From positions 1,984,001 through 2,048,000 of the forward strand of contig CM035356.1 of assembly GCA_020137815.1 (NCBI GenBank): 64,000 nt of DNA. Direction: 5' to 3'. Numbering within the stretch: the first letter of the stretch is position 1; the number at the start of each line of letters is the position of its first letter. The position numbers and the translations under genes are program-made. The notes beneath the pieces are model-generated. The model searched no databases. It was not told where the DNA came from and was given only the letters and a program-made list of their open reading frames with translations. This document shows, piece by piece, positions 1,819 through 63,950 of the stretch. Source of the DNA: Hormiphora californensis. Lineage: Eukaryota; Animalia; Ctenophora.

Positions 1819-2927
1819 TTGAACAGGTGGTTCCAACTAGTTTCATAGACCTTCACCCTTTTCTCGCCCTGTCTCCCTCGTTTCAACAGGTCATTAGTAA
1901 TAGCTTGTTGATCTGTCACCATAATTGATAATGCTTTATTATGATGTTACCGACACGCGTCAAAGAATATGTCAGGGACTAGCTGATATATAAAGGACTG
2001 CTTTGAATCGTTTTTGAAGAGGGTCCCCACCCTAAAAAGAAGAGCCGCTAATCTGTTCGTCCAGTGTGTGTACGAGATCTATTGTTTGCCGGTACCCTCT
2101 TTACCTTAGACGCTGCAGTTTACACATAATAGCTTCTAGTGGGCCAGCTCTGCAGCAGCAGGTTGTTTTAATTTCTTATTATGTATGGGTGCACTTTTTA
2201 GTAGGGGAGCTCATTTCCGGGGGGACTTGCGTTGTTAATGACATCAACCAATAACAACATGTAGCCCGGGACACTGCAGCTTGCTTTATAATCTAACCAA
2301 TAGTTGCAGTGGTAATGTGTTCATCCAGTCATGAACCTTTCTTTTGCGAACCACTTGTATAAAACAGCTCTCTTAATTATTCAATGTCGTAACACCATAA
2401 CTTTACGGGGGGTAATTTGCCCTCTTTGGGAAAAGCAGCTTCCTTCGAAACACGTTCCCCCAACACATGTCATGTTTTCTCTCTTATCTTATCTTATATG
2501 CTTATCTGATACGATGACGATGAGAGAACAACAAAAGTTATCATCTCGTAATACTTTAATTTTTTTATAGTCTGTTGAATTGTAGCGTACAGTATATCAT
2601 GATGAAAATTACAGTAATCGTCCTGATAGCCCTCCTTCCTCTCCTTACAAGGTGGGTGTTCATTCATTTTAGAGACATTTAATATCATCCAGGGCACGCA
2701 GCTTTTTGCATCTTTTCATTATCCTTTCAACAGAATTATATAATCCCCTGACCCCAGATCACTCTCAGCCCAATGACCCCAGCTCCCTCTCTCAGCTCAC
2801 TGACCCCAGCTCTCCCTCTCAGCTCACTGACCCCAACTCCCTCTCAGCCCACTGACCCCAGCTCCCTCTCACTGACCCCAACTCCCTCTCTCTTTTCACT
2901 CTCACTCACTCTCTCTCTCCCTCTCAG

Positions 2928-3714
2928 CTCGCAGGCAGTTAACACGGAGGAGGTGGTGGATACGCTCAGTGCCCTCATGTGCAGTCGCCTTTCAAAGGGT
3001 GTAGTACGAACCAGTGATAAGGAGATGAGAAACTTCTGCGAGTCAACCAAGACCATCATATGCGATCAGTAAGTGCATTGTCATGCGATGCCCGGCCACG
3101 ACCCTCTCTCCCGGTTTTAACCTGTCAGAGCGTTGGCTTGACCCTGTTCTAATTTCTTTCACGGAGCACACGAGAACATAGAACCTGACAGATCCAGTGA
3201 TGACACTAAAGCTCTACCTCCCCTCAGGGAAATTAAACTAAAGCTCTACCTCCCCTCAGGGAAATTAAACTAAAGCTCTACCTCCCCTCAGGGAAATTAA
3301 ACTAAAACTCCCCCCTCAGGGATACTTTTGATAAGTCATCTGAGGAGGTATCAGGGTTTGCCTGTAAGGGAGTGAAGAATCCAACTCTATCCTACCAGAT
3401 GCAGAGGACCCCGGGATACGTGTGTAGCTACTCTGGAAGCAGTGAAAAGGTACACTTACTGTCTCATATTACGGCCTCCCTTGCACCTCCGGAGATCTCT
3501 GGAGGTGCAAGGGAGGACGTTATGTATCATGGCTCTTTTTTGAGTTATTGAGTACTGTTATTGAGTAAGGAGTAGGACGATTTGATTGGATACCCCATTA
3601 TTAGTGGTACTGATACCCCATACCAAAACAGCTGCAATAGCGGTACCGACAATAATGAACTTTTTGCAGGTCAAAGAATTAAAACGGAGAATGGAGTATA
3701 GTGGATATTGTTAA
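2928..3714 (+). CDS. 3' exons of an unidentified spliced gene
   Basis: Three phase-compatible exons (2928-3068, ~3320-3449, 3670-3714) with AG/GT borders read ...SQAVNTEEVVDTLSALMCSRL...DQ/DTFDKSSEE...SSEK/VKELKRRMEYSGYC*. No recognisable domain; upstream exons uncertain. Confidence 0.45.
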
Positions 3715-4547
3715 AGGACATCCCCTTAACATCATCAATGTATACGCGATGTATACAATGTACAATGTACATATTACACCGTGTGGATAGACCCGCCCCC
3801 AGATAGAGAGGATCAGTACATTCTTCAATACCCTAGTAGAGAGCGCTGGACCGTTTTTTTGCTTATTTCACAAATATTTTATCGCACACATAGTCCGAGC
3901 TACAGAAGAAGTCCTGCAGCGTTAGGTTTGTCTTTTACACACACACACACGAGCTTGTGCAATTGTAAATTGATGTTTTCGAACTAATATTCTACGAGTT
4001 TTATTTGGTACCCAATGACTATGTATGCAATATCCAGGGGGCCGGGGGGTGATCTGGATGGACCGGGTAATGATTTGATTTGAAATAGATATTATATAAA
4101 CGTACAAATTGCACATTAAATAAATACCCGACTGACTCTTACTAATAGTTTAGCAGCCTATGGCGCGAGTGCTTACGTCTTAAAAAACTCGTTTAAAAAT
4201 ATTTAAATAAAGTAGCTATAAGGCTAAAACACACTCTTATACTAGTTGTAATCTAAATTTATTTCACTCATTAATAATAACAATTATACTTAATACTTAC
4301 CCTTGATTCCCAGTCCCCTTCCTCCCTCCCCCATGAACCATACCCCGAATTTAACGTCATGTCGACTGTTGGGTAGATCAGTTATAATTCACATCTGTGG
4401 TGCGGGTCCACCATCTTGTTTCAAACTGTTCAACACCACTCCAAACCTTCAATTTGAGTACAATGTAAGAATGAAAGATATGTGCGGAAGAAGGACAGTT
4501 ACTGTAAAGATAAAAGAAGAGAAAGGGGCCCACACCACAGCAGCGGA

Positions 4548-7500
4548 TTAAGTTATGTCGTGTAAGGCTTTCCAGAGATGGTCTTTCAGTCTAGAGGAAA
4601 ATAAATGGTGTTCAGCTGTATTTCTCAGTTCTTTAGGAAGTAAGTTCCACTCAAGGTGGCAGCGGTAAAAGTAACAGTTTTTGAACAGGTCTACTCTGGG
4701 TTGTTCGGTACATATAATGTCCGTACTGTCTCGGTTTGTTTGTTGTCTGGTGGCACGTCTGTCATGTAATTCCGGATTGTATTTTTGTAGGAAAGATGGA
4801 AGTTTTATAGGAGACGTCTCATAGAATATTTTATGGAACAATTTAAGATCATTATATTGAAATTTTTGAGTCATTGGGAGTACGTCAATCTCCCTGAGTT
4901 TCTTTATATACGTATCTAAACTATAACTGGTATCTGTTTCACCGAATATCCATTTTGTGGCACGTTTCTGGAGTCGTTCAAACTTAAGCAGACTTGACTC
5001 ACTTTGTGGACGCCATATTTGGCTACAGTGTTCGAACAAAGATCTAACTAGACTAATGTAGAGGTTCTTCTTTTTAAGGGGACATTTAACTAATACGCCT
5101 ACACGCTTCACCAGTCCTAATCTTTGAGAAGCTTTGGAAACAACATTTTTCTGGTGTTCGATTGGCGACAACTTGTGATTAGTTGAGACTCCTAGATCAA
5201 CTTCATTTTCACATAATTTGATTTCATCTCTGCCTAGGTGATAATTTAGTTGACGTTGTTTAATAATTTTAGTACACCTAAGCAGCTTACACTTTTTAGG
5301 ATGGAATATCATTTTATTATCCTTTGCCCATTCCACTAAACTATCGATGTCGGGCTGCAAACTATCTTCTTCACTATTTATAACCCGCCAAATTTTCAGA
5401 TCATCTGCATATAGCCTAATTTTAGTTAGATCATCTTCTCTTAAAACATTAACAATATCATTTATGAATAACACAAACAAGAAAGGACCTAGTATTGATC
5501 CTTGTGGAACTCCACTCCTAACCTCTACCCATTCTGAAAAATCTCCATCTAACACAACCCTCTGTTGCCTACCAGATAAATAATTCATTAGGAAACGCAA
5601 CATCTTACCTCCTAAATTAAACTCATTTTTCAGCTTATTTATTATTACATCATGAGATACACTATCAAATGCTTTCTGAAAGTCAAAGTAAACTATATCA
5701 GTTTGATTTCGGTTATTTATGTTCAACGCTAATTCACAATTAAACTCAATCAGTTGTGACGTACATGATTTCAAGGGTACAAAACCATGCTGGTAGGGAG
5801 TTATTTTTTCTAGACAGGCTTTATATAGGCGTTCTCTTACTAATTTCTCAAAAACTTTCATAACAAGGCAAGTCAGGGATATAGGCCTATAATTCTCAAC
5901 GCATGATCGTTCCCCTTTCTTGTAAACTGGGACAACGTTCGCGGTTTTCCATTCTGTTGGTATACATCCCTCTGAGTATGATTTATTAAATATAAGGGTG
6001 AGTGGATAAGCTAGGGATTTATGACATTTCTTAAGCACAACACCGTCAATATTATCTGGACCTGTTGCTTTTGACGCATCCAACTTTTTTAGAATCTTTT
6101 GGATCTCATCAAATCTAAATATCTCAGAGTTAAAATCATTAGTGTGATCTCTATCAATATCAACAGTTTCTTTGTAGGTGCTAGATTCAGTGAATTGATT
6201 ACAGAAAAATTCATTGAACATTTCACATTTACGACGACTCGAAGAGCTAAATTTATTATTAAAGTATACTCTCTCAGGAATTCTAGTGCTATTCGTTTTG
6301 GACTTAACGTGTTTGAAAAATTTCTTTGATACATTAGCATTGGGTGTAAGTTCATCTATAGAGGAAAGCTCGAGAAAAGATGTTTCTTTCTCTATTGCTA
6401 GTGTTCTGTATTGATGTTCTTTGAGTTCGTATTCCTCTTTAGCTACAGTACTATCTATATTTTTCAAGAAGGCTTTTCTAGAGTTATCGAACGATTTCTT
6501 AAGTTGGCGTAGTTCTTCATCATACCAAGGTGGCTGTGAGCCAATTTTTACATTGACTAATGGTACATTATGACGTAGTGCAATGTCTAACCTAGACTTA
6601 AAGACTTGTAGGGACTGCTCTGCTGACAGATCCTTGAACTGTCCTAACCAGTCAATTCCTAAAAGCTCTTCATTTAGAGAGTCCCAATCAGCTTTTCTAT
6701 AGGAGAATTTCTTACAATTTTTATACTTAGGGCGTGATTTTTTGAAATTTATCTCACATTTTAGTGTAAGATGGTCCGACTTTACAAGACTATTCTCTTC
6801 GAGCAAAACATTAGAATAAGTAGTTTCTATGTTAGTAAGTATTAAGTCGAGAATATTTCCATCCCTATGCGTTGGTACATTAACTAGAGATTTTAGGCCT
6901 AGAGATAAAAATAAATTGATAAAACTCTCATGAGTACTATTATTTGACACTGGGACGTCCCAGTTATCCACCGAACTTAGGTTTAGATCCCCTATAATGG
7001 TGAGATTCTTAAACTTCTTAGCAAGATTAGTATAGTAACGTTCCGCCTCTTTGAAGTGTTCCGATCCAGAATAATCATATCTATAAAATGTCGAGATACA
7101 AACGGGTGCTATATTTTTATGCTTTAGAAGAATAGTAACTATTGGTAAATCGGTCTTCGTTTTAACTAACTCTGTCTCAACTCCAATATTGTTTTTACAA
7201 AGTATTAAAACTCCTCCACCTCCTTTTTTACTAAAAGTTTTCATATCCTTCTCAGTGCGGTCTTTTCTAAATATAGAGTAATATTTATCTGATATAAGTT
7301 CCCCTTCACTAATATATTTATTCAGCCAAGTTTCATTTAAAACAACAATATCGGGCGAGTAGGTGAATAAGTATGCTTTTAGATCCCTAAGTTTAGAGGC
7401 CTGAAATTCAGGCTGATCCCCACCTATTGTGTGCATCTTTATCAGACCGTTAACATTACAATACACTAAGTTCAACTTTTTATCAGGTCCTGGATTAATA

Positions 7501-7958
7501 ATGTCAGGATGGCTTCTCAGCAGTAGCATTTTCGCTAACGACGTAACAAACATAACAAGTATAGTATATCTGCATCTGACTTTGAACAAATTAATGCCTG
7601 CAATCCTAAACTTTTTATAACATCGATATGCATACTTACTATGTCTCATACCTTTGACTAAGAAGAGGAATAGGACACAATTTGCATACCAAATATATGG
7701 TGAATTTAGATCAAACACAAATTGGCCTTCTTTTCTGAACTTGACGGGTGGAGGGGTACTCCTGAGCATTATTCCTAAAAGAGCTATCATTAGTATTGTG
7801 TAACAAATATATATGAGGAAATGATAGATTAGTATGTCTGTCGTTTCATTGTATTGTCTTTTGTTATTGTCGGTGTTGTCAATTTTTATCCTTTTCCCCC
7901 CAGCCAGACCCCCCGCAAAACCCCCAATAGCTTTTCTGTATTGTTCGACACTGATCAT
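4548..7958 (-). CDS. LINE ORF2: APE endonuclease + reverse transcriptase
   Basis: APE motifs YCNVNGL, DIVVLNETWL, IIGDLN, ILDLILTN, SDH; RT motifs KATGPDNI, NYRPISLT, QHGF, DFQKAFDSV, GVPQGSILGP, YADD. Uninterrupted frame. Confidence 0.97.
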   Translation of the reverse strand: MISVEQYRKAIGGFAGGLAGGKRIKIDNTDNNKRQYNETTDILIYHFLIYICYTILMIALLGIMLRSTPPPVKFRKEGQFVFDLNSPYIWYANCVLFLFLVKGMRHSKYAYRCYKKFRIAGINLFKVRCRYTILVMFVTSLAKMLLLRSHPDIINPGPDKKLNLVYCNVNGLIKMHTIGGDQPEFQASKLRDLKAYLFTYSPDIVVLNETWLNKYISEGELISDKYYSIFRKDRTEKDMKTFSKKGGGGVLILCKNNIGVETELVKTKTDLPIVTILLKHKNIAPVCISTFYRYDYSGSEHFKEAERYYTNLAKKFKNLTIIGDLNLSSVDNWDVPVSNNSTHESFINLFLSLGLKSLVNVPTHRDGNILDLILTNIETTYSNVLLEENSLVKSDHLTLKCEINFKKSRPKYKNCKKFSYRKADWDSLNEELLGIDWLGQFKDLSAEQSLQVFKSRLDIALRHNVPLVNVKIGSQPPWYDEELRQLKKSFDNSRKAFLKNIDSTVAKEEYELKEHQYRTLAIEKETSFLELSSIDELTPNANVSKKFFKHVKSKTNSTRIPERVYFNNKFSSSSRRKCEMFNEFFCNQFTESSTYKETVDIDRDHTNDFNSEIFRFDEIQKILKKLDASKATGPDNIDGVVLKKCHKSLAYPLTLIFNKSYSEGCIPTEWKTANVVPVYKKGERSCVENYRPISLTCLVMKVFEKLVRERLYKACLEKITPYQHGFVPLKSCTSQLIEFNCELALNINNRNQTDIVYFDFQKAFDSVSHDVIINKLKNEFNLGGKMLRFLMNYLSGRQQRVVLDGDFSEWVEVRSGVPQGSILGPFLFVLFINDIVNVLREDDLTKIRLYADDLKIWRVINSEEDSLQPDIDSLVEWAKDNKMIFHPKKCKLLRCTKIIKQRQLNYHLGRDEIKLCENEVDLGVSTNHKLSPIEHQKNVVSKASQRLGLVKRVGVLVKCPLKKKNLYISLVRSLFEHCSQIWRPQSESSLLKFERLQKRATKWIFGETDTSYSLDTYIKKLREIDVLPMTQKFQYNDLKLFHKIFYETSPIKLPSFLQKYNPELHDRRATRQQTNRDSTDIICTEQPRVDLFKNCYFYRCHLEWNLLPKELRNTAEHHLFSSRLKDHLWKALHDIT

Positions 7959-8087: not shown

Positions 8088-9548
8088 TCAGTTAAAAACT
8101 AACTCCTCATACATAATCTCATTTAACACATTGTACCCATTACTGTTGAGGTGTACTCCGTCCTCCGAAAATAAAACACTATTAAAATTAAGTTCATTAT
8201 TTAAAAACTCAATTGTCCAATCCGAAACTACACAATTCAAAGACCTTCCTACACTCATCACAATACGATTGAACATGAACACGTTACTCGCTATCCAACC
8301 ACTATCAGGTCTGAGAGGGATAACCGTAGCGAGAACGATCTCGGTATCCTCCCCAAACCTTCTCCTAACCTCCCTAACTAAATCTACATATGCCTTATAC
8401 ACACTCCCTTTTCCCTTACTCGACCTTACAAACCCTCCCCAATATCTGATGTCATTGGTCCCAAACGCCAAAATAACCTTATTAACCTCTAGACATGGGT
8501 GCGTTACTTCCAGTCCTTTCAACATATCCATAGCCAAACTCCCCCTCCAGTTCTCATTCGGCCTACAAAGTCTCGCCCCTGAAATCGAGATGTTCACTAG
8601 CGCCGGGTCCTCGTGGATCCACTTCGTCATACTGGTTCCTAGTAGAAGTGTCCTTGGTGTCAGTCTGGGGTTCGGCAGTGTTGGTGTTGGTAGAAGGGGC
8701 GATCTGGTAGGGAATACAGAGTTCTCTTCCTGATACCCATCTACGGCAGGCGGCGAGGTTGGCGACAAAGTCATCTGTGATGCTGGAGCTTCCACCCGAG
8801 ACTGGTGTACTGGGAACTGGGGCACCTTCTGGGACTTAGCTGGGGTTGGTGCAGGTGGAGTTGGTTCTGGAGGCGATGTTTTGTGCCTCTTCCTAAAAGA
8901 CAGGGCATATCTCACGCCATACTCAACCTTTTGTGCACGGTGCTTAAAGTGCTCTTGGCATCCTGGCTTCATGGTGTACGCCTCACCATCCTTAGTGGTT
9001 ATAGACAGCTTAGGCCGCATCCGGCCATCTCCAAGGTAGGGAATGAAATCTACAGCACCATCGCTGCCAACGGTCACGACGGTGATGGGTGAGTTGTCCA
9101 CCAGCGAAGTCTCGAAATCTGAGTGGTATCCCACGCCGTCCCCTTTTCTGTATCTAGTGACTAAGCAGGAGTTGAACTCAGTCCCTAGTTCCTTGTTAAT
9201 CCTCTCCATCAGCTTATCGATGTTCGGGTATTTAGTAATGTCCTTGGGTGTCAGGTCCACGTTGGCCCACCCGTAGGGACACCCAGTGTTAGTTAGCCAG
9301 GTATTCTTGCCAGTTAATCCTCCTACTTCCCATTTCATCATCTCGAGGTCCTCATCAGAAACATATCTCCCGTGGTGGGTAACAAACTGATTCGGATCCT
9401 TTTCTGGAACTCCATCTCTCTTACGCCTCTCTAGCTCCTTTTGTACAATCTGTATAATCCTCTCCAACACGGGCGATGATACCCTGGTAAAGACTTCCTC
9501 TAGAGGTGTGTTGTCTAGAATCATGTTGGAGGCGTTGTTAACAACCAT
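8088..9548 (-). CDS. LINE ORF1: AlkB-like 2OG-Fe(II) dioxygenase + Pro-rich linker + SGNH esterase-like domain
   Basis: FNSCLVTRY...GVGYHSD...FKH...RYALSFR (HxD...H...RxxxxxR as in ALKBH2/3); then LLLGTSM, ISGA, FGTND, DGVHLN (SGNH blocks I, II, III, V). Confidence 0.9.
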   Translation of the reverse strand: MVVNNASNMILDNTPLEEVFTRVSSPVLERIIQIVQKELERRKRDGVPEKDPNQFVTHHGRYVSDEDLEMMKWEVGGLTGKNTWLTNTGCPYGWANVDLTPKDITKYPNIDKLMERINKELGTEFNSCLVTRYRKGDGVGYHSDFETSLVDNSPITVVTVGSDGAVDFIPYLGDGRMRPKLSITTKDGEAYTMKPGCQEHFKHRAQKVEYGVRYALSFRKRHKTSPPEPTPPAPTPAKSQKVPQFPVHQSRVEAPASQMTLSPTSPPAVDGYQEENSVFPTRSPLLPTPTLPNPRLTPRTLLLGTSMTKWIHEDPALVNISISGARLCRPNENWRGSLAMDMLKGLEVTHPCLEVNKVILAFGTNDIRYWGGFVRSSKGKGSVYKAYVDLVREVRRRFGEDTEIVLATVIPLRPDSGWIASNVFMFNRIVMSVGRSLNCVVSDWTIEFLNNELNFNSVLFSEDGVHLNSNGYNVLNEIMYEELVFN

Positions 9549-9598
9549 TCCTAAAACTCCATGGCTAAAACAGGCTGTTAATCCAAGAACATTACGTC

Positions 9599-9632
9599 CT
9601 CAAATTAATTTGTTTAAAGTAGTGTCGAAAAG
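9599..9632 (-). other. Genomic copy of spliced-leader-like sequence in the LINE 5' region
   Basis: Minus strand CTTTTCGACACTACTTTAAACAAATTAATTTGAG; 33/34 identical to the copy at 16551-16584. Matches the ctenophore SL as recalled. Not followed by a GT donor. Confidence 0.8.
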
Positions 9633-10003
9633 CCTGATCGGGTGATGGAAAAAAGGAGTACAAGAGGGAGAGATAGAGAGGTCTGTTAATAACGTTCCAA
9701 TAAAAAAGGGCAGGTCGTTTGCCCCCAGAATCCAGATCCATTATTCCTCAGCTATTTGTTGAACCCCAGGTGTTCAAATACCGATCCGATAGGGGGCTGA
9801 CAGTGCAGATATTATAGTGTTGTTGATCTCCTGCTACCTCCATAGCCCTCCATCCTGGCCTGGCCCTAACTGGAGAATACCTACTATAGAATATTAGAAA
9901 CCCTGCCATCGACTCTTGTCTCTTGGGTCACAATGAGAACTGTTTTAGTTTTAATTGTGATAACTCTGTAAGTTTAACTGAACCTTGTTAATGAGCTTCT
10001 ATT

Positions 10004-10858
10004 TTGGTACAGCCTTTGAAAATAGTCTATTTCAGCTCTCTACCAGACGCCACCACAGCACATAACAAAGTTGAGGGTGAGCAGAACAACTTCACTCTCA
10101 ACCTCCTCCGAGTCTATCTCTGTAGTGGGGATGAGAGATGGCTGGATGAGATCCAGGATATCTCCCTGTACATGGTAGCCAAGGTTGCATATCTCGTGCT
10201 GTGCACAATAGACGACCCAGACTTCCTAACCCATGCAATACAAACCTTCCTGCCGTATGTGAATCACGATGATATGAAACCTGCCCGGGCATGCCTCAGG
10301 AGCCTTGCAGTGCAGTACATTGGTGAACTGTCCTGTTATCCTGTTATCATGCAGGAACAGGTTGTTGTGTGGAGAGATGTCTTGTGTGTTGGTGAGGCAC
10401 AGTGTTTAGATCAGGGGATCTGGGATCTCTTTGTGAGGATTGTGGATAGAAAGAAGGAACAATTGAGGGAAGAGTTGTGTCCCAGAGATCTGTTGGAAAG
10501 AAGCGTTTCTAACCGTGGACAGTATCGTAAAGGGAGCAATGGTGGTAACGGACGTTGCCATGGTAACCGATGTACAACTAAGAATCCAGTCCCAAAGGAC
10601 CGTCATCTCAAGTCTGGTCCAGCTCACTCTAGGATCAAGAGGCAGTTTGACCCTCCAGCACACTCTCGGATAAAGAGGCAGTTTGACCCTCCAGCCCACT
10701 CTAGGATCAAGAGGCAGTTTGACCTACAGAGTACCCTGACCCTGTTCAAACATGTGATTTGTGGCAGTGAGCTATCACACCTACTATGGGATGAGGATGA
10801 TATTGTGTATTCAATGTTTAGTGGTTATTATTGTTGTGTTGTTAGGGCCATATCTTGA
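10004..10858 (+). CDS. Unidentified ORF/terminal exon with three 13-aa repeats
   Basis: 284-aa ORF, acceptor-like TTCAG near 10035, 39-nt unit PAHSRIKRQFD(P) three times at ~10619-10722. No recognised domain. Confidence 0.45.
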   Translation: MVQPLKIVYFSSLPDATTAHNKVEGEQNNFTLNLLRVYLCSGDERWLDEIQDISLYMVAKVAYLVLCTIDDPDFLTHAIQTFLPYVNHDDMKPARACLRSLAVQYIGELSCYPVIMQEQVVVWRDVLCVGEAQCLDQGIWDLFVRIVDRKKEQLREELCPRDLLERSVSNRGQYRKGSNGGNGRCHGNRCTTKNPVPKDRHLKSGPAHSRIKRQFDPPAHSRIKRQFDPPAHSRIKRQFDLQSTLTLFKHVICGSELSHLLWDEDDIVYSMFSGYYCCVVRAIS

Positions 10859-14500: not shown

Positions 14501-15301
14501 GCTGTCTTGTTCTGCAGAGGGGAGGTTGGGTGAAGAAAACGCTGAATAACGTGTACTAAGTGCTCACAACCAGTGCCAGCATCGATACTATCTAGTATCT
14601 AGTGTAGTACGAACTTTAAGAGTTAGAATACTCTTAGAATACTAACACTCTCAGAATACTGAACCACACTATATATTGCACTTACATCTTCTTCATACTT
14701 CTTTTCCCGTTTCCGTTTCTGTTGTAATGCCTGTACGATGCTGTAATCATTAGGTTTCAGGGGATCATACTCGTGCTTGATAGGCATCTTGGACGCCTCA
14801 GTTTCTACAAAGATTTCTGGAGGAGGAGAGCCTGTTGTTATTAAAGGGGGTTACATCTTTGTGCGGAGGTAGTGTAGTAACAGCTGGTATACAGAAGGTC
14901 TAAGGTTCAATCCCCGGTCCCGGGATTTTAGTCACCCTTTTCAAAGTGTAGTACCCTTTTCAAATTGTAGCACCCAGTACTAACCAGGCTGAGGAGGAGG
15001 GGAATCCTCTTTTGCCGCTGCCATTTGTTCCCTCATTGGGGCTGTAGTGTTAGTGGAGCTCTTGGTCAGCTTAGGAAGTGCTTTCCTCATTAGCTGGGCT
15101 GTCATCAGGTTGAACTTGGACTTGGATGCACCTAGACAGATTTGGACTTAATTAAAAACTTTACAAAGGGTCTATTATTAGTCATTTGTGAGAGTTGGAT
15201 CTTCATTGGGTTGAATTGCTAGCTATAGGGTACATTATGTACTTACTATGGCTGGCATCAGACTTGGCAATCTCCACATCTATACCACCGTATAGGGACA
15301 T
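11533..15301 (-). CDS. RBM17: Splicing factor 45 (multi-exon)
   Basis: MSLYGGIDVE start; EYDPLKPNDY SF45 motif; G-patch VASNIMNKYGWKEG/LGKAEQGM; UHM/RRM VILLKNMVGPGEVDDDLEAETREECSKYG...AVRIFVHF...DLHNRFFGGR. Confidence 0.93.
12674..12864. repeat. Palindromic MITE-like element in an RBM17 intron
   Basis: Inverted arms such as CATTGCGCGTCGC/GCGACGCGCAATG and AACCCGGGTGAACAAGCTAACAATAGTG/CACTATTGTTAGCTCGTTCACCCGGGTT. Confidence 0.65.
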
Positions 15302-15571
15302 GGTTCAACTGGCTTCTTATCTGCTTCTAGTTTATCAGTTCACATACCAAATAGCTACAGAGTGGAATTGAGAAGTTATTATCTAATGTAGAAAGATATA
15401 TTTTCTTGCAAAATTGGATACATTTTCTAGCAAAATTGGAATATTAAAAAGTAATAAATAATTAAAAAGTTAGAGTCCATTCTCGACGAAACCATGTATG
15501 TACACACGCTTAAAAACATCTCATGACACTTATTCCTATCCATTATCCAAGCTGAGGGGCTCTATAATGTG

Positions 15572-18500
15572 CTACCCACACCGCAGTGTAGCGAGTATCC
15601 CCCAGTGATCACTGGGAAACATGTCACAACTAATCAGCTTCTCCTGTCCGATCAGCTCGAATGAACGGGGCGAAAGGGAGTTAGATCCACCTCCGTTTCT
15701 GAAGTTGAACAAAATATGTCAAGGAAATATTTAATGCTGGACTACAAAACTGAGAACCTGATACCTAGGTGTACCATGAATAAGAGCATAACATCTGATA
15801 AGCATAGATTATAAGCCGTACAATGAGCCACACATTACAGTGACTTATAGAGCACAGTTCACACCGTACCTGATAAGCATCCTATCAAATCGGAGTCGGG
15901 CCTTATTACCCGGGGCACTCTCCCGTAGGTTCGTGTTCTGGGCCATGTCCCAGGTATAACGAGTCTTGCTGTCACTACCACACGCCTCCCAGATATCCTG
16001 CAGGGGGAGGGGGTGAGGGGAGGGGACTATATACATGTTGGGGGGCTGAAATTTTTGAAGCGATTTTCAAAAACTTCAATAGGTAACTAAAATGGGTAGG
16101 AAACTTCAACTTGTTTTCCATTCTCCAGCCTCCGTGTCCCAGGTGAACAATGGTGACCATGAGAAAAATAATACCACATGTGAAGAGAAATGGTATTTCT
16201 TTCTCAATGTAGTGTGAACTATGAAACAAAGCCCTGGACTATAACAGAATGGTATGTTGTAATAGGGACGAGCTGGGTATACAACATGAAACGGGAAACC
16301 CAGCTTCACTTCTTATTTCTTCTCCGTATCGTTATAACAGTCCATCACCAACACGTACGTACCTCTGGTTACGAAATAACCCCTCTCCCTAGCGCGAAGT
16401 TGGTTACGAAGTCACCCCTTTTATTGCATACAATGAGCAATATTTGTTTGTTGGGATGATATCTCCTTCCGGCTTCAATCAATCAGGGACAAAATGAAAA
16501 GCGGTGTTTTTATTAACGAACAGTTTCGATGTTACAACATCTTCCTCAGCCTCAAATTAATTTGTTTAAAGTAGTGTTGAAAAGTTTGACTTTGTTACCA
16601 CAACTACCTTGACTGAGCTGCCTGCATGATGCTTGTTGATGACTGCTTGGTATTCCTTATCTCGTAGATTGGTATCCCCTCCAAACACCACACAGCACCC
16701 ATCAGTAGCACCCATCTTATTTAGCACCTAGTGGGTGATATAATGATGTTCCTTGAGTATACTTTTATTTATCTTAGTTGTTTTAGTCATTTGGTCTAAC
16801 CCCCTCCCTCGTACAAACTGAACAGTCCTGATTGGTCAGTAATGTGATGACAAACAAATTATTTTTTATTTTTGGGCAAAAGGAAGAAATAAAGGGCTAT
16901 CCGGCAAGTCTTCTGTCTGTGTTTTCTTCTCCCTGAGTACACAATCAACTACTATAATTACCTGTTCTAACTGCTTCTCTCGTTCCTGTCTGTTGGGTCC
17001 GAGACTCTCCAGGTGTGACGTCATGAACTGAATAGTGACGTCATTGTGCATTGTACAGGGCACACTGATGAGGTGCCGGTACATGGTACTGCTGGGAAAT
17101 GGGTGGATAGACTCCCCTCCTATCTTAGTTATTGGACTATCATCGCCACTGAAAGGGGTCGGAGGAGGGTAGAGAGGGGTGGGTGGTTTATGGTTAGGGG
17201 TTGGAGGAGGAGGGTAGGGACTAGGGAGACGTGGGTGGTTAGGGGTTGGAGTAGGGGAGAGGGGGTAGGTGGTTAGGGGTTGGATGAGGGGAGAGAGGTA
17301 GGTGGTTAGGGGTTGAAGGAGGGTAGAGAGAGGTGGGTGGTTAGGGGTTGGAGGAGGGTAGAGAGAGGTGGGTGTTTAGGGGTTGGAGGAGGAGGAGGGT
17401 AGAGAGGGATGGGTGGTTAGGGGTTGAAAGAGGGTGGAGATGGATGTGGTATATAAACAAATACTGAATATTAGATCTCTAACTAGCGATTAAAACCATT
17501 CTTGGGAAATTTCACTGTTTTGAATTTTGAGCTAGTACCTGTAAACCAGTAGGACGTTGAAATAAGGCACTTGGGTGTCTCCTAGGAAGAATCTGTAGGA
17601 TCCTCCCAGACAGTCAATAATGGGTGACACATGTGCCTCCACTACCTCTTGTAGCATCACCTAGAGAAAGATATGTAGTCAGAGATAATTAACTGATTAT
17701 TTTAATTGTCGAGTTTTAGTGGGTGTAGATAATCATATAACTAGCCAGTAACCAGTATCATACTGTAATTGCCATATGAAGCCTGCGTAGATAATATCTC
17801 GACAGTAGTAGCCAATTAAACTTGACGTCACAAGGCAAGTGATTATGTTTAGTTGTGCAATTGTCTACTGCAGCCGTGATGTCACTAGTAGACTGTATGG
17901 ATCAATTCTACTCCTGGCACGTCTGTCAATCTAGTCGTTACTATATCAATCTAGTCGCTACTATATCAATCTAGTCGCTACTATATCAATCTAGTCGCTA
18001 CTATATATCTTTCACGCTGCTATACTACTGAGCTGTTTAACTTCACCTTTCTACACCTTTCTTCAGCTGTTTCGCATCGAGAGCTCTAGACAGCAAACAT
18101 ACACCCGGGAAAGAATACAAGCTGTTATGCTACCCCCGTCACAGTGTAGTATTTAGGACCGCCAGACATGGCTGATATATTAGTTTACAAGATAGGATAT
18201 AAGTGCACTTACAACAGTGCACTTACAACAGTAGGTTTCCGTTGTTTTATCTCCCTTATCACTGCTCTAAACCGATCTCCAATGAACTTGCTACAGAGCC
18301 CATCGACATTCCAGGATAACACAGTCAACTCTGTGGGCCGTTCCAGTTTCGCCTGATGAGAAGAGTTCGTTATTATTATGAGGTTATTAACCTAATTTCA
18401 TCATCATGGAACAGTAGGATTGATCTTCTGGTATTCTCTTTCTTTCTTTCACAGCTCACATGTCTATCAAAATTCCTCCATATGTAAAATGAGCCTAGGC

Positions 18501-30107: not shown

Positions 30108-33100
30108 TTATGCTAACATGGTTAACATCTCGTTAAGCTTGTATACCCGCCTGTTATCTGCACAAAGTTGGATGATCGTACCCCATAACTTGTTAACACT
30201 CAGCATTTGTAGGTTACCTGTCGGAGGGAAGCTTGTAATAGGGGAGGGACCCAGGGAGGGAGAGTGGGTGTATCTATGAACAAATAAAGGGTCGTCACTC
30301 GTCAGGGTAACAAGGATAACAGAGTTTCACTGTTACCTAGAATCAGGAGATGGTGTTTGGCACGAGTTAGGGCGACATTGGTGCGCCTTGGACAGTCAGC
30401 AAAACCTATACGGGCAGAACGGACACAACTGAGCAGAACTACACTCCTCTCCGCTCCTTGAACTGCGTCTACCGTGGATATCTGGAGAGGGAGGGGATAG
30501 TAATATGCAAGAATTGGACTATCACGAATATTATTCGGCGAATAATAAACAAGATTTGATCAAATTAGAACGCCCCCACCAGGAAGCGACCCCACATATG
30601 ACATGATACCCCATCCCTACCCCATTTACCTTGACCCGTTTATATTTCATTCCTATTTCCTTCTTCAACAGTGCCTCCTGACCCCTGTATAGTGTTATCA
30701 CTGCTATATCCTCCTGCGCCACAACCTTCAGCACTTTCTCCAGCTAAATGCATGGGGATGTTAGGCTTTTATAGAAAACACTAGATCGTGGGGTTGGGGC
30801 GGGTTACAAAATATCAAGATTATGCAAAAGAAGCACAAAAGAAGAAGTTTTGTTTTCACTATTAATAGTAAAAACAATATCGCACAGCCACGTTGGTTAC
30901 GAAGTCACACCTATTACGCTTAGCTGGGAGGTCGCGTTGAGGGGAAATTTCGTTAGGGTAGCCACTGGCTATTTGAAACAGTTTTTCACTTTTTTCCTTT
31001 GTGTGTCCACAAATCAAGTCGAACCCAAAATTTTTTCACCCTATGTTACCGAGACAGTCCCAGGGTAGTTTTTGAAGTGGTTTGAGATGTCTCATTTTGT
31101 CTTCCGGGGTCAGGGTCACGTGATATCTATCCAAATTTGGTGTTTCAATTAGCCCGCCTCAGTCTGCTAATTTGAAACAGCCGTATCTCCCTCAATTTGT
31201 CCACAAAACCGAGATTTTCGACATGGAATAGTTAGAAAAGGGTTGTACAGAGCTATTCCATGTCTGAAATCTGAATTTTGTTACATGTGCTTGGTGTAGT
31301 GAATGTTTCCGAAAAGTGTTTCAAATAGCCAGGAAAACAGTTTTTGCCCCAAATTCGGCCAATTTTTGGCGGAAATGGCTAAACTCATAATTCATATCCT
31401 CCCTATGCTCAAAATGAACATCAAAAATTTCCGACAGCGGATTTGGAGAAAAGTGTTTCAAATAGCCCTCCGCAGTGTTTCAAGTTACCAGACTCGCTTG
31501 TCCTGCAGATCATATCATAGCGAATACCACTGAACCCGACTAATTTCGATACGCTGAATCACGTAAGCAACTTTTCAAATCCGTCTGAGGTCGATAAAGT
31601 GCCCTAATTGAGTATAATTGGGTCTAATTGGCCTTAATTGCTCAATTAAGGCACTTTCCCGATCTCAGACGGATTGGAAAAGTTGCTTACGTGATTCAGC
31701 GTGTCAAAATTAGTCGGGTTCAGTGGTTTTCGCTATGTTATGAATTAGTTTCAATTTTTACTCTCCAAGCTTGGTCAAATGATCAAGTATGGTCAGTCTG
31801 TGCGCGCCCTGAGGTTTAAAAAGCTATTTATAATTATATTCAAGTTTCCTAATTTTCATTTTTTGAAATAAAATGGAAATCTTTGAGTTTTTTTATTAAA
31901 ACACAAGGATTGTTTCTATTCCAGAATTTAAAACAACGGCATGTCAACATACTATTAGCTATGACTTTCTTAAACAAGCTACCACATACGGGGCACTTTG
32001 TTTCAAATAGCCAGTCCATGTGTTTCACATAGCCAGACACTGTTTCAAATTGGCAGCTGTTTCAAATAGCCAGTGGCTACCCTACCAAACAGCTACGTAC
32101 CATGGCTACTATGGCGGTTGATTCAGCGGTATTGGAGTAGCTATCACCCCACCCCTTGCTCTCAGTTCCCTGTACAGATACAAAGCTAACAGCTGGTATA
32201 TCCTCCAGTGGCAGTTCAATGGAATCTGAAGAGGAGAGTTGTTAAATGTGGCGAGAGAGGTTCCAGCAAGTCAAGAGATGGTTTGTTTAGGAGCAAGGCA
32301 AGAGATGATAGTATAACTTGAGGGAAGAAAGATTGGAGAGTGTATTTACCCCTATGAGTGCCGTCTTGTAGTTGGTTTTTGTAGAACAGCTGGTTTGCTA
32401 TCGCCGAAATATCCGGGTGGCATCGGTATTGAGTACTGGAGAGAGAAAGAGTGGTGATTGTATTAGTTACTGGAGAGGTAATTGATTGTTAAAATTAACA
32501 AGGAGGTTTGAGTGGTCCCAGAATGTTAGAAACAAAACCACTGTTTGTGGTCCAGGGACAGTTCCCAAATTAGGTAAACAAATTAGTACAAACTGAAATA
32601 ATTTACTAAATTTACTAACTTGAGGGTTACAGTAGGGTATCCCAGTTTCTGCATCCTATCGTACAGGGTCATCTCCAGACCTCCCCCTCCACTAATGTTC
32701 TCGTGTTCAGTCTCCACAGTTGGGGGCAGCTGGAGAGGATCACCAACCAAGACCACTCGGGAACAGGAGGATGTGATGAGTGGAAGAAGGGAGGAGGGCT
32801 CTGTGATCTGAAGGGGGGGGGGGGGTGTGGTGAGGGGGAGAAGGGAGGAGGGCTCTGTGATCTGGGGGGGGGGGGGGGTGTGGTGAGGGGGAGAAGGGAG
32901 GAGGGCTCTATGATCTGAAGGAGGATGTAATTAGAGGGAGAAGGGAGGAGGGCTCTGTGATCTGGAGGAAGGGGGAGTAATGAGGGGAAGGAGAGATGAG
33001 GGCTCTGTGATCTGGAGGAAGGGGGAGTAATGAGGGGAAGGAGAGATGAGGGCTCTGTGATCTGAAGGAGGATGTGATGAGGGGAAGGAGAGATGAGGGC

Positions 33101-39839: not shown

Positions 39840-40441
39840 CGCGATATTGTCATTCTCAACTAGGAGCTAAAACAGTACATAACATGATTATAACATTTCA
39901 AAAAAAGATAAAATTGTACATTAGGGAGATCTAGTACATAGGCACATTGTTGATGTATAATGAGATGTGGTTTTTACTTATGGGAAACTAGTGGCTGACA
40001 AGAGACAAGGTGATTCAGACAAACAAGCTTTTTATTTAATGCTTAACAGTAATATTATATAGCATTCAAAATATGATTATTTAAAAATAAAATAACGTAA
40101 AGTCGGATTTTTTGAAGTTGTAACCCCTTTTTCACACGGCGTCGTATTTGTGCGTGACAGCCCCCACTTGCTCTCACTTTTCGGCAAAAAGTCGCATATC
40201 ATCGGAAAGAGCATAATTTTGTGAGTCCGTAAAAGTTTTGTTTGACAAAATTGGTCAAGAAACAAAGGCGTGAGAGCCAAAACAAGTGTCAGCACTGTCA
40301 TTCGAAACTGGGAGCTGGTAACTGATACCTGTTTCCAATTTTTTAACTGGCGCCTAACTGTTCAGTGTTCGTTAACAATTAGTGTAATTCCAGTACTAAA
40401 GCCAAATAATACATTCTCAAGCTTTAGTAATTAACTAAAGG

Positions 40442-41996
40442 TTAACCTCTTTTTGTACAAGAGACCTCATGTTTCATCCTTGACGGATAAGAGCTAAACT
40501 TTTCCCTACAATAAAAACAATTATAGTCTTTTTTATCAGTGTGGGACTCAGAATAATGTATCTTTAAAGAATGAGCTCTACTATAACTCTTCCCACATTC
40601 CTTACATTTGAAAGGGACCTCACCGGTGTATTTAAGCTGATGTAATCTTAAATGAGATGTGCAAGAAAATGTCTTACCACAATTAGCACATTCAAAAGGT
40701 TTTTGTTTAAGTCCACTGTGAATATGTTTATGACGTGTTAAATCAAACTTACTCCAAAAGGACAAAGAGCAGGCATCACACTGGTGTGGTCGAGCTGGGT
40801 GTGAGGTTTTTATGTGATGATCCAAATCAGCTTTTGGCATTCGACTACCGCATTTATCTACCCGGCATGTCACAATAGTTTTACCAGAATGAACATTTTT
40901 TTGATGACGATGTAAATTCGGTTTCAAGGAGAACAACTTCCCACACTCTTCGCACTGGTATGGTTTATCTCCACTGTGAATCAAGCTGTGTGTCTTTAAA
41001 AGACTTTCCTTTTCGAACCCCAAAGGACATATTTTACAGCGGAATTTTCTCTCTGGATGGTCAAGTCTGACGTGTTCAAATAAGTCTTTTTCAGAAGATT
41101 TTATAACCGAGCAATCCTTAAGTAAACACTCAAAACCTTTTCTTTTACCATTTTCGTCAAGAATCACCCTTTTTTTAACTTCATTAGGATTGAGATGGTT
41201 CTTACGAATTGTACCCCTAGGTTGATACACCGAATCTGAAACTTGAGAGGAAGGTAGAGATGTCTCTACACTCTTGACCCGGGTAGACTTCCGAGGAGGT
41301 GGAACTGAGGCAGAGAGTTGTTTAGATGGTGGCTGGGGAGGAGGGGACTGGGACGGAAATGATGGCAGTGTTTCATCTTCACTAGAATCAGTAGTAGTAT
41401 CGTCCCCAGAATTCATCATATCAATTAAATTGCTAATTTCCTCTCCACTACTGGATTCAGAATCGTCATCTGAACAGGGCTCATCCTCAGAGGAATCATC
41501 TGAAAAGAAAATCAAATTTAGAGCGAGGAAAATGATTAAAACCAAAATTCAAAAAGAAAATGATAAGGTTTGCAGGAAACGACCGAAACAACAACAAAAG
41601 GCCCTTACCATCGTCTGAAGACACAAGTATTGGTGAAGCAGCAGAAGAATCAGGAATAGAGTCACTGTTACTTTTAATTTGACCTGATTTCATTTCTTCA
41701 GTGAGTTTAGAGGTCACTGGTTGCATCTCTGGCTCTTCCCCAGTTTGAATTGCTACATCCACTAACGTGACCGATTTAACAACCCGGTACCCTAGACGGT
41801 GGAACCCTGATTTTCCACAGTGATCACACAGTTGTGTAACGACATGTTTATCATTCACCATCGTTTCGAAATCTTTAGGTAAGGTGGGTGTCGTAATGGC
41901 AGGTTTTGTATCTTCCACCACAATATCCTCAGTTTTCAGTAGAGGTGGGAGAACTTGAAACCTTCCTTTATTGGATGTCTTTCGTCTTTTTGACAT
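40442..41996 (-). CDS. C2H2 zinc-finger protein, tandem copy 1 (2 exons)
   Basis: Exon 1 MSKRRKTSNKG (41996 to ~41610), acidic linker, about 8 C2H2 fingers with HSGDKPY/TGEVPF linkers. Confidence 0.9.
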
Positions 41997-42849
41997 TTTA
42001 CTATGGAAGGAAGGGTTTTAGATTAATAGTCAGAAATAATTAATGACTAGGATTTGGCTAATAAAAAAGCAATACGATACTACTCAGAAAGGGAAAGACC
42101 AGACCAGAGAAGGAGAAAAAACCAATACAGAATGTAAAGTTAGATTTTCAATGATGTAAACCGGGGGCGTGCATCCTAATTTTTTTCGATTTGTGTGTGT
42201 TACACCTACAAGTTCCTGAAAAGCTTAAATTTCGATATTGAAAGTGTTGGAAAGATAATTTTAAGACCTTTTCAATGCAACCAAGTTCAATTATTCTTCA
42301 TATGATCAGGAACCAAAGATATGATCAAAATGGTTTATCACAAACAAATCGAATTATGCAAAAACACTGTGTGTGCGCACTCCACAGTGCGCACCCCCAG
42401 TTCACATGATTAAAAATCGAACTTTAGAATAGTCGATAACTACATTGATCCCTCCTAATTATTGCATTTTTTGTTCCATTTGTTTGAACACACGACACGA
42501 CCTCTGAGCAAATACATTGAAAAACTGAACAATTTTTTCGTCCGATTTTTATGAAACTTGGTGCAAAGATAAAAACAATAAATACGTGAAAAAGTTACAC
42601 CTGTTCAGAGGTCGTGTTAACTGTTTAGAGGGTACAATGAAATGTAACAAAAATTTTAAGGGTTCGATGTAGTTATCAACTCTCCTAAGAGAAAACAGTT
42701 AATTAAAATGATAGGATACTAAAAATATTCCGCTGCAGAAGATACGTAAAATATAATATCCTTATTCCAGTACTATTCCAGTACTACAGCAAAAAGGTAG
42801 TATATTCTTTAGCTTTAGCACTGGGATAACACGGATAGGAAAGTAACAG

Positions 42850-44414
42850 TTACCCTCTCTTTGTACAGGAGACCTCATGCTTCGTCCTTAACTGATAAGA
42901 GCTAAACTTTTTCCTACAATAAAAACAATGATAGTGTTTTTTATTAGTGTGGAACTCCGTATAATGTTTATTTAAATAACTAACTCTACTATATGTTTTT
43001 CCACATTCCTTACATTTGAAGGGACGCTCACCCGTGTGTTTACGCAGATGTATTCTTAATTGAGATGCGTAAGAAAATTTCTTATGACAATAATCACATT
43101 CCAAAGGTTTCAGCTGAAGTCCACTATGTGTCCGTTTATGACGTGTTAGTTCAGCATTACTCCAAAAGGACAAAGAGCAGGCATCACACTGGTGTGGTCG
43201 AGCTGGGTGTGAGGTTTTTATGTGATGATCCAGATCAGCTTTCGGCATTCGAATACCACAATTATCCACCCGGCATGTCACAATAGTTTTACCAGAATGA
43301 CAATGTAAATTATGTTTCGATGCAAACGATATTCCACACTCTTTGCATTTGTATGGTCTATCTCCACTATGAGTCAAGTTGTGTCTCTTTAAACGCTGTT
43401 TATAGTTGAAACCCGTTGGACATAATTTACAACGGAATGTTCTCTCTGGATGGTCAAGTCTGACGTGTTCAAACAAGTCCTTTTCAGAAGATTTTATAAC
43501 CGAGCACTTCCTAATCAAACACTCAAAACCTTTTCTTTTACCATTTTCGTCAACAACTACCCTTTTTCTAACTTGATTGTGATTGACATGGTTCTTACAA
43601 ACAGTACCCCTAGGTTGATTCACCGAATCTGAAACTTGAGAGGAAGATTGAAATGTCTCTCCACTCTTGACCCGGGTAGACTTCCGAGGGGGTGGAACTG
43701 AGGCAGAGAGTTGTTTAGATGGTGGCTGGGATGGAGGGGACTGGGACGGAAATGATGGCGGTGTTTCATCTTCACTAGAATCAGTAGTCGTATCGTCCCC
43801 AGAATTCATCATATCAATTAAATTGCTAATTTCCTCTCCGCTACTGGATTCAGAACCGTCATCTGAACAGGGCTCATCCTCAGAGGAGTCATCTGAAAAG
43901 AAAAATCAAATTTAGAGCGAGGAAAACGATAAGTTTTGTAAATACAAAACTGATTAAAACCAAAATGCAAAAGGAAAATCATAAGGTTTGCAGGAAACGA
44001 CCAAAACAACAACAAAAGGCCCTTACCATCGTCTGAAGACACAAGTATTAGTGAAGCAGCAGAAGAATCAGGAATAGAGTCACTGTTACTTTTAATTTGA
44101 TCTGATTTCATTTCTTCAGTGAGTTTAGAGGTCACTGGTTGCATCTCTGGCTCTTCCCCAGTTTGAATTGCTACATCCACTAACGTGACCGATTTAACAA
44201 CCCGGTACCCTGGACGGTGGAACCCTGATTTTCCACATTGATCACACAGTTGTGTAACGACATGTTTATCATTCACCATCGTTTCGAAATCTGCAGGTAA
44301 GGTGGATGTTGTAATGGCAGGTTTTGTATCTTCCACCACAATATCCTCAGTTTTCAGTAGAGGTGGGAGAACTTGAAACCTTCCTTTATTGGATGTCTTT
44401 CGTCTTTTTGACAT
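42850..44414 (-). CDS. C2H2 zinc-finger protein, tandem copy 2
   Basis: Same structure as copy 1; short in-frame deletion in finger 3 (NLHCHSG). Confidence 0.9.
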
Positions 44415-45524: not shown

Positions 45525-46080
45525 CTATCAATATAGTTGTTTCAGTAGGCCACAAGAGAGCTCTATCGGCAAGGAACCGAGAGCAGATAGTACAACAAAT
45601 AGAAACACGTTGGTTTACAAACAAATGTTTCGATCTTGCGATCTCATCAGTGTAATAAATAGGAAAACAAAATTAAACAAAATTATCCGAGTATGCTCCT
45701 TCATAAACTCCTTCACAGTAAAAACTTCTTTTTGTGTCGGCATTTAGAGAGGATCTCTGTTCTAGAATTTAACAGCCGCTGGTCCCTCGATCTTCGCACA
45801 ATCTCTAGCTTTTCCGATGTACAGAGGTCGCATGTTGACTGGCCCACAGTGTAAGGTCTTCCTCTCCTCAAGATCTCCCACTCGATATCCCACGATCTTC
45901 CTTCACGTTTCAGATCCCAGATCTTTTCGGACAGCTTTTTTTTTTACTGTGAAGGAGTTTATGAAGGAGCATACTCGGATAATTTTGTTTAATTTTGTTT
46001 TCCTATTTATTACACTGATGAGATCGCAAGATCGAAACATTTGTTTGTAAACCAACGTGTTTCTATTTGTTGTGATAGGA
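45525..46080. mobile_element. Inverted-repeat insertion (about 130-bp arms) present only in the second zinc-finger spacer
   Basis: 45592-45724 is the reverse complement of ~45940-46072; absent from the homologous spacer at ~42715; an arm fragment recurs at 52306-52368. Confidence 0.8.
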
Positions 46081-46216
46081 TACTAAAAATATTCCGCTGC
46101 AGAAGATACATAATATATAATATCCTTATTCCAGTACTATTCCAGTACTTCAGCAAAAGGTTATATAAGTATTCTTTAGCTTTCGCACTGGGATAACACG
46201 GATAGGAAAATAACAG

Positions 46217-51231: not shown

Positions 51232-63950
<12,719 letters not shown>

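What the first reader, a model, noticed from the sequence alone, without database searches (positions are those of the whole stretch)
9549..9700. Spliced-leader sequence hard-wired 50 nt upstream of LINE ORF1, behind a new acceptor
Seen: a 34-nt SL-like motif ending TTAATTTGAG lies in sense orientation before the ORF1 ATG and is followed by GAC, so it is not an SL RNA gene. Just upstream is a long pyrimidine tract ending ATCAG. Inference: the element RNA was trans-spliced and then reverse-transcribed, fixing the leader in DNA like dinoflagellate relic SLs. It could be re-spliced at the upstream acceptor. This suggests a LINE that relies on host polycistronic transcription and trans-splicing rather than its own promoter.
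Basis: partly seen in the sequence, partly recalled or inferred. Interest (0 to 1): 0.85.

Follow-up and report, generated by a model that had tools for sequence, protein, structure and literature searches.

The report
Comb-jelly LINE headed by spliced leader
A jumping gene (LINE) with both genes intact, in what appears to be a comb-jelly genome, carries in its DNA a shortened copy of the leader that comb jellies splice onto messenger RNAs, and three distant relatives have leader-like blocks at the same place, so these elements likely copy themselves from leader-spliced RNA.

Summary
Observation confirmed. Bases 9632-9599 (minus strand) are the last 34 of the published 44-nt Pleurobrachiidae spliced leader (SL), with one substitution. 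They lie 50 nt before ORF1 of a LINE whose two ORFs are both open. Contigs of three runs pile on exactly this block and branch at its ends. The upstream acceptor is real (80 of 127,880 window sites have one as strong), but 2 of 3 relatives lack one. All 3 relatives with a visible 5' region (about 30% ORF1 identity) carry an AT-rich SL-like block ending in AG. That resemblance is good for two, weak for one, and is not recovered by held-out profiles. Best reading: retrocopies of trans-spliced RNA, as a lineage habit (0.65). Not shown: a promoterless life, polycistronic transcription (both flanking genes face the other way), re-splicing, or any SL-ORF1 transcript. Genomic SL copies are common in ctenophores (718 in Hormiphora), and a second lies in this window. 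Precedents exist in Schistosoma, Hydra and dinoflagellates; this scan noted SL-headed LINEs earlier in dinoflagellates and Perkinsus.

The parts
9599..9632 (-). Genomic copy of the host spliced leader: last 34 of 44 nt, one substitution at 9626; likely 5' end of the element
   Evidence: that it is the element's 5' end is inferred
9634..9680 (-). Pyrimidine tract and CAG (splice-acceptor-like), one G before the SL copy; probably flank
   Evidence: 80 of 127,880 sites; not shared by L001 or L022
9549..9598 (-). 50-nt 5' UTR with two short uORFs (ATG at 9592, 4 codons; ATG at 9562, 3 codons) and three YAG sites, the last ending 2 nt before the ORF1 ATG
9578..9608 (-). Predicted 13-14 bp hairpin (four or more G-U pairs) joining the SL 3' end to the start of the UTR
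   Evidence: 1 of 500 shuffles; 2 of 1500 random 50-mers reach 14 bp; 2 of 200 shuffles; the whole UTR folds no better than shuffles
8088..9548 (-). ORF1, 486 aa: AlkB-like 2OG-Fe(II) oxygenase plus GDSL/SGNH esterase
4548..7958 (-). ORF2, 1136 aa from the first ATG: hydrophobic N-terminal extension, AP endonuclease, reverse transcriptase
   Evidence: the hydrophobic stretch was read by eye
4071..4547 (-). 3' UTR ending in a short (TCAAA)-type repeat; probable 3' end at about 4071
   Evidence: the boundary is inferred, no second copy was available to confirm it
16551..16589 (-). Second, separate genomic SL copy (39 nt, followed by GCT) inside an intron of a TDP2-like gene; not part of the LINE

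Best explanation
The block is a 5'-shortened DNA copy of the ctenophore spliced leader at the front of an intact LINE, likely left there because the element's RNA was trans-spliced and then reverse-transcribed almost to its cap, likely as a habit of this whole LINE lineage. Steps: (1) shown: the block is the host SL and sits sense, 50 nt before ORF1. (2) Inferred: the parent RNA received the SL at the start of the UTR, and target-primed reverse transcription stopped 10 nt short of the 5' end. (3) Partly shown: distant relatives have SL-like blocks at the same place, each followed within 4-7 nt by a short uORF. (4) Inferred, about 0.3-0.4: new copies, having lost whatever lay upstream of the splice site, would be expressed by host read-through and re-spliced at or next to the old leader, whose end is itself an AG. 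An internal promoter is the open alternative.
For: SL identity. The copy is truncated and not followed by GT. A second copy in the window has another truncation point and unrelated flanks, as scattered retrocopies would. All 3 relatives with a visible 5' region have a block ending in AG before ORF1. L022 matches the window SL better than all 2000 shuffles and shares an exact 13-mer. L002 has both SL ends 46 nt apart; the pattern occurs in 1 of 132 loci and 0 of 200 shuffles. L001 and L002 match each other (0 of 1000 shuffles) although their ORF1s are 35% identical. The relatives' RTs group with Mnemiopsis proteins (SH-aLRT 96, quick tree); the nearest named ORF1 is Pleurobrachia bachei at 62%. 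ATG at +4 to +7 in 4 of 4 heads against a 10% background (heads not independent). Precedent: six SL exons merged to transposable elements in Schistosoma (PMC5832876); SL on about 30% of Hydra TE Iso-Seq reads (PMC12220107).
Against: No contig bridges the SL and ORF1, and no second copy of this family's 5' end was obtained, so the element boundary is unproven. Held-out profile searches over 471 kb did not find the relatives' blocks at significance: L022 E=14 from the window-only model; L001 and L002 absent from the top 12. Against the 39-nt window SL, L001 scored 121 of 1000 and L002 24 of 1000 shuffles, while a reverse-strand control scored 6 of 1000. The degenerate K in the L002 pattern was chosen after seeing L002. 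Part of L022's block may be satellite: a non-LINE locus (L091) shares it together with upstream 161-bp satellite sequence. The hosts' own SLs are unknown for all three relatives. The only target-site-duplication candidate (10 of 12) is not significant (23 of 300). All three relatives have GT after the block, which also fits an SL RNA gene.
Confidence: 0.65

Rival explanations
1. SL-gene association. The lineage inserts into, or once captured, SL RNA genes (as NeSL or CRE/SLACS elements do) and is co-transcribed from the SL promoter. The SL donor could then be spliced to an acceptor near ORF1.
For: GT follows the block in 3 of 3 relatives. Their sequence stays alike for about 70 nt beyond it (3 of 1000 and 9 of 1000 shuffles). 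The SL pairs with following sequence in 2 of 4 heads (14 and 13 bp), as SL exons and introns do (recalled). L022 shares upstream sequence with another SL-like locus, L091 (0 of 500). A YAG lies 2, 7 and 35 nt before the ORF1 ATG in the window, L022 and L002.
Against: The window copy lacks its first 10 nt and has GAC, not GT. No common fold in the three relatives (consensus -1.14 kcal/mol). The sequence shared by L022 and L091 upstream is a 161-bp satellite. L001 against L002 beyond the block is not significant (36 of 1000 and 203 of 500). The endonuclease is AP-type, whereas NeSL-clade elements have a restriction-like one (PMC4640811, passages).
Confidence: 0.15
2. Chance neighbour. The LINE landed just behind one of the hundreds of scattered SL copies, and the relatives' AT-rich blocks are ordinary acceptor or UTR sequence.
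For: 718 genomic SL copies in 110 Mb of Hormiphora, 35-48 bp long, and 491 in Mnemiopsis (PMC8527503); two in this window; weak held-out scores for the relatives.
Against: At that density a sense copy within 200 nt of a given ATG is expected about 7 times in 10,000 (my arithmetic from the paper's counts). The L022 and L002 matches lie at the expected place.
Confidence: 0.1
3. One-off template switch. During insertion the reverse transcriptase jumped from the LINE RNA to an abundant SL-bearing host RNA and copied its 5' end.
For: A very deep X3 contig (depth 4536) lies on 9589-9623 with two other letters, so it resembles the SL plus the next 10 nt. Chimeras of this kind are known for L1 with U6 (recalled).
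Against: With 374 SL contigs in X3, a few 10-nt extensions are expected by chance, and similar ones occur at the other SL copy. A one-off event does not explain the relatives.
Confidence: 0.08

Closest known systems
SL exons merged to transposable elements in Schistosoma mansoni (PMC5832876; passages read)
   Same: Genomic SL exon fused to (retro)transposons in an animal, read by the authors as possibly trans-spliced and reverse-transcribed elements.
   Different: Six unclassified loci that the authors thought might be assembly chimeras. Here: a ctenophore, an element with both ORFs open, and similar heads in three distant relatives.
Relic-SL retrocopies of dinoflagellates (Slamovits and Keeling 2008, not read; described in PMC3229502, passages read)
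   Same: SL fixed in DNA by reverse transcription of trans-spliced RNA, with possible re-splicing at an AG in or by the old leader.
   Different: There relics pile up in tandem and decay, on ordinary genes. Here each of 4 heads has one block, on an autonomous LINE of an animal.
Trans-spliced TE transcripts of Hydra (PMC12220107; passages read)
   Same: Animal TE RNAs use the host's SL trans-splicing (about 30% of TE Iso-Seq reads).
   Different: RNA-level only in the passages read; nothing on SL fixed at the head of genomic copies.
NeSL and SLACS/CRE elements that target SL genes (PMC4640811, passages read; Malik and Eickbush 2000 not held)
   Same: A non-LTR element standing directly behind an SL exon.
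   Different: Those are site-specific, with a restriction-like endonuclease. This one has an AP endonuclease, two ORFs, a truncated SL and no shown target.
CR1/L2-group LINEs with esterase (type IV) ORF1 (PMC4120745; passages read)
   Same: AP endonuclease plus RT in ORF2, esterase in ORF1.
   Different: ORF1 also has an AlkB-like oxygenase; that paper has no occurrence of AlkB, oxygenase or ctenophore and found the esterase only in vertebrate subgroups.

Membership tests
Pleurobrachiidae spliced leader (exon sequence) | Identity to the published 44-nt leader | tested here: met
   33 of 34 over its 3' part
Pleurobrachiidae spliced leader (exon sequence) | Shared head of many different transcripts | tested here: met
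   398 contigs of 3 runs laid, nearly all on the block only, branching at its 3' end; RNA status of the runs is a guess
SL RNA gene | Full-length exon followed by a GT donor | tested here: not met
   Window copy lacks 10 nt and is followed by GAC; relatives do have GT
SL RNA gene | Conserved stem-loops and Sm site | tested here: inconclusive
Relic-SL retrocopy (dinoflagellate type) | SL in genomic DNA at the 5' end of a retro-inserted sequence | tested here: met
   SL 50 nt before ORF1 of a LINE; that it is the very end is inferred
Relic-SL retrocopy (dinoflagellate type) | Target-site duplication enclosing SL and tail | tested here: inconclusive
   10-of-12 candidate, reached by 23 of 300 random windows
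Relic-SL retrocopy (dinoflagellate type) | Tandem, decaying relics from repeated cycles | tested here: not met
   One block in each of 4 heads
Relic-SL retrocopy (dinoflagellate type) | Transcripts with a fresh SL on the copy | not testable with these tools
   Only contigs were available; none covers the junction
SL-gene-targeting non-LTR elements (NeSL, SLACS/CRE) | Restriction-like endonuclease | tested here: not met
   AP endonuclease, PF03372
SL-gene-targeting non-LTR elements (NeSL, SLACS/CRE) | Fixed insertion site with the rest of the SL gene as 3' flank | tested here: inconclusive
   One 3' flank seen; the relatives' contigs end in the 3' UTR; SL intron unknown
AP-endonuclease LINE, CR1/L2 group | ORF2 with AP endonuclease and RT; separate ORF1 | tested here: met
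AP-endonuclease LINE, CR1/L2 group | RT phylogeny with named clades | not tested
   No named reference elements in the tree; the group label rests on domain layout and recall

The most novel reading that the evidence does not exclude
A ctenophore-wide LINE clade has given up its own promoter and uses the host spliced leader as a self-renewing head. Each full-length copy starts with an SL whose terminal AG (or an acceptor beside it) takes a fresh SL when host transcription reads through. The head thus tracks the host's current SL while the proteins diverge, tiny uORFs behind it damp ORF1, and the same enzyme seeds the hundreds of scattered SL copies in ctenophore genomes.
Probability: 0.25. Interest if true: 0.8.

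Novelty: new variant of a known kind. Interest (0 to 1): 0.55.

Why it matters
If full-length copies of this clade begin with the host SL, an animal LINE is tied to trans-splicing in its life cycle, and this intact copy makes that testable by 5' RACE, long reads and a family-wide 5' alignment. It also offers an origin for the 718 and 491 scattered SL copies counted in Hormiphora and Mnemiopsis, which the passages of PMC8527503 that I read treat as leader loci without asking how many are retrocopies. SL-fused retroelements as such are already in print for other groups, which limits the surprise.

Tried and rejected
No whole genome is held, so family copies could not be aligned; no second fragment of this LINE lies in the window. 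Sequencing runs: no RNA holder listed. X1 and X2 have five contigs on ORF1 and the ORF2 start, with 4-8 other letters each, and no cover of the 5' junction; this says nothing on expression. A 25-nt SL pattern found nothing in viral or genome contigs. Viral scans gave four weak AlkB-domain hits in long polyprotein ORFs and no ORF2 relative; dropped. Rfam has no relevant match. The bacterial promoter scan does not apply. In bin G001, further SL-like heads were sought by pattern, DNA, profile and ORF1 searches: only L022 and L091 turned up, and the 20 contigs begin too late. L089 has an AlkB ORF, but its 5' region is cut after about 90 nt by an inverted LINE piece and shows no block; counted as uninformative. 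One ORF1-profile match in five other bins was a bacterial AlkB. Six long LINEs of a more distant group have no match to model R1, but that model was built from the positives, so the test is circular; one search is the fair one. A target-site duplication was not significant for the LINE or the intron copy. SL translations were not found in the N-termini of 188 ORF1-family proteins. An HDV-like ribozyme was considered by eye and not seen. The atlas did not answer. Derelle et al. 2010 and Malik and Eickbush 2000 are not held. Supplements of PMC8527503 could not be read and may describe the genomic SL loci.

Full report
What is in the sequence. On the minus strand, 9632..9599 holds the 34-nt motif, followed by GAC; the ORF1 ATG is at 9548. 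ORF1 (486 aa) has an AlkB-like 2OG-Fe(II) oxygenase and a GDSL esterase domain. ORF2 (1136 aa from ATG 7958) has an AP endonuclease and an RT, and both frames are open. A short (TCAAA)-type repeat at about 4071-4083 is the probable 3' end (inferred). The 50-nt gap holds two short uORFs and three YAG sites.

The motif is the host SL. PMC8527503 (passages) prints a 44-nt leader for Hormiphora, found on 56% of Iso-Seq reads and at 718 genomic places, 35-48 bp long; Mnemiopsis has 491. The motif is its last 34 nt with one substitution. On window 9520-9699, 19, 5 and 374 contigs of runs X1, X2 and X3 were laid. They cover the block and stop, and loose ends upstream continue with the leader's own 5' letters. 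None reaches ORF1. The runs' RNA status is a guess. The nearest named ORF1 relative is Pleurobrachia bachei at 62%, so the window is very probably a pleurobrachiid ctenophore. A second SL copy (39 nt, followed by GCT) lies at 16589..16551 in an intron of a TDP2-like gene. A genomic SL is therefore not rare here; the question is whether it belongs to the element.

The acceptor. The tract and CAG are real: 84% pyrimidine over 45 nt and no other AG for 49 nt. 80 of 127,880 window sites have an acceptor as strong within 3 nt (over 20 nt, 4% of YAG sites do as well). It is not a family trait: none in L022, a pyrimidine-poor CAG in L001, a possible one 25 nt off in L002. A 10-of-12 repeat at the two junctions is not significant (23 of 300). 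The genes on both sides lie on the plus strand (read by eye), and the nearest minus-strand gene, SPF45, ends about 1.9 kb upstream. The layout does not suggest an operon.

Relatives. No genome is held. Scans gave three relatives with ORF1 and its upstream region: L001 and L002 and L022 from a bacterial bin rich in LINE contigs. Their ORF1s have the same two domains and are 29-31% identical to the window's and 35-39% to each other. In a quick RT tree of 24 rows, L001 and L022 group with a Mnemiopsis protein (SH-aLRT 96), and the window's RT lies in the enclosing group (92); L002 has no ORF2. All three have an AT-rich block of 35-46 nt ending in AG, 102-167 nt before ORF1, followed by GT and an ATG at +4 to +7. 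For SL identity: L022 beats all 2000 shuffles against the window SL and shares a 13-mer; L002 has both SL ends 46 nt apart, in 1 of 132 loci and 0 of 200 shuffles (one degenerate letter chosen afterwards); L001 and L002 match each other (0 of 1000). Against: L001 and L002 score 121 and 24 of 1000 against the 39-nt SL while a reverse-strand control scores 6 of 1000. Held-out profiles over 471 kb did not recover L001, L002 or L022. L022's upstream sequence and the first 25 nt of its block recur in a non-LINE locus, L091, beside a 161-bp satellite that itself holds a 9-nt piece of the block. The hosts' SLs are unknown. I count two heads as probable SLs and one as possible.

How it most likely works. 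Shown: an SL copy, 5'-shortened, sense, before ORF1. Inferred: the parent RNA was trans-spliced at the start of the UTR and copied by target-primed reverse transcription to within 10 nt of its end. A near-perfect current SL on an element whose ORF1 has diverged by 70% from its relatives implies that the head is renewed from the host, at least now and then. Since trans-splicing removes what lies upstream, such a copy needs either an internal promoter or host read-through. The old leader ends in AG (TAG in all three relatives, a weaker GAG here, where a strong acceptor lies just upstream), so a fresh SL could replace it exactly. That would explain single rather than tandem blocks in 4 of 4 heads. 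This last step is untested (about 0.3-0.4). The uORFs, present in 4 of 4 heads, would lower ORF1 translation (inferred). A 14-bp and a 13-bp helix between SL and UTR in the window and L022 (1 and 0 of 500 shuffles; none in L001, L002, L091 or the intron copy) is unexplained and fits both this reading and the SL-gene rival.

Rivals. SL-gene targeting or capture (0.15) is favoured by GT in 3 of 3 relatives and by similarity beyond the block (3 and 9 of 1000). It is disfavoured by the truncated, GT-less window copy, the lack of a common fold and the AP endonuclease. Chance adjacency (0.10) and a one-off template switch (0.08) do not explain the relatives.

What is known. Schistosoma has six SL exons merged to transposable elements, read as possibly trans-spliced retro-transcribed elements (PMC5832876, passages). 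About 30% of Hydra TE Iso-Seq reads carry an SL (PMC12220107, passages). Dinoflagellate relics are described in PMC3229502 (passages). SL-targeting NeSL elements are covered in PMC4640811 (passages). PMC3795323 and PMC2566580 gave nothing relevant in the passages found. Ten searches (listings seen) showed no paper on SL-headed LINEs in ctenophores, but Derelle et al. 2010 and the Hormiphora supplements could not be read. This scan noted SL-headed LINEs earlier in dinoflagellates and Perkinsus (unchecked notes) and none on this genome or sequence.

Verdict. A real feature, and a new variant of a known kind. Interest 0.55: the element is intact and the lineage-wide, promoterless reading is directly testable, but the central mechanistic claim is not shown and precedents exist.

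Noticed in passing
window 16551-16589 (-): Second genomic SL copy, 39 nt, starting 16 nt into an intron of a TDP2-like gene, followed by about 120 nt of unknown sequence and then a short repeat also seen near 13990; no target-site duplication found.
   Followed up: partly
window 8088-9548 (-): ORF1 joins an AlkB-like oxygenase (H142, D144, H203, R213, R219 invariant in 15 sequences) to an esterase. The family is large (347 clusters at E up to 1e-30; partial matches included). One search found no paper on this ORF1 type. An RNA or DNA demethylase in a LINE particle may deserve its own look.
   Followed up: partly
window 7460-7958 (-); L001 2400-2890; contigs L105-L112: ORF2 has about 160 residues with hydrophobic stretches before the endonuclease, in the window and in relatives (read by eye).
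   Followed up: no
L001 2287-2298: Exact 12-nt match to the 3' end of the window's SL between ORF1 and ORF2; not significant by alignment score (192 of 1000), but it would fit a separately trans-spliced ORF2 message.
   Followed up: partly
L091 1088-1180: SL-like start, a hairpin ending in TAG then GT, a second hairpin and a T-run like an Sm site, directly behind a 161-bp satellite: a possible SL RNA gene variant or the end of a satellite-bearing repeat. Folding is no better than shuffles.
   Followed up: partly
window 15301-15572 (-): The TDP2-like gene ends about 270 nt before the probable start of SPF45 on the same strand: a possible operon pair (start codon read by eye).
   Followed up: no
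window 9995-10858 (+): 287-codon open frame, head to head with the LINE, with no Pfam match; the atlas did not answer.
   Followed up: partly
window 2598-3714 (+): Four probable exons of a small cysteine-bearing protein with a signal-peptide-like start (read by eye).
   Followed up: no
window 40433-47785: Three tandem copies of a C2H2 zinc-finger gene unit, and long inverted repeats at 45592-46073, 61124-61591 and 31510-31743 that look like MITEs.
   Followed up: no
G001 (L007-L035, L104-L123): A bacterial genome bin holds many eukaryotic LINE contigs (44 endonuclease matches); other bins also carry LINEs. These look like host contamination of the bins.
   Followed up: partly
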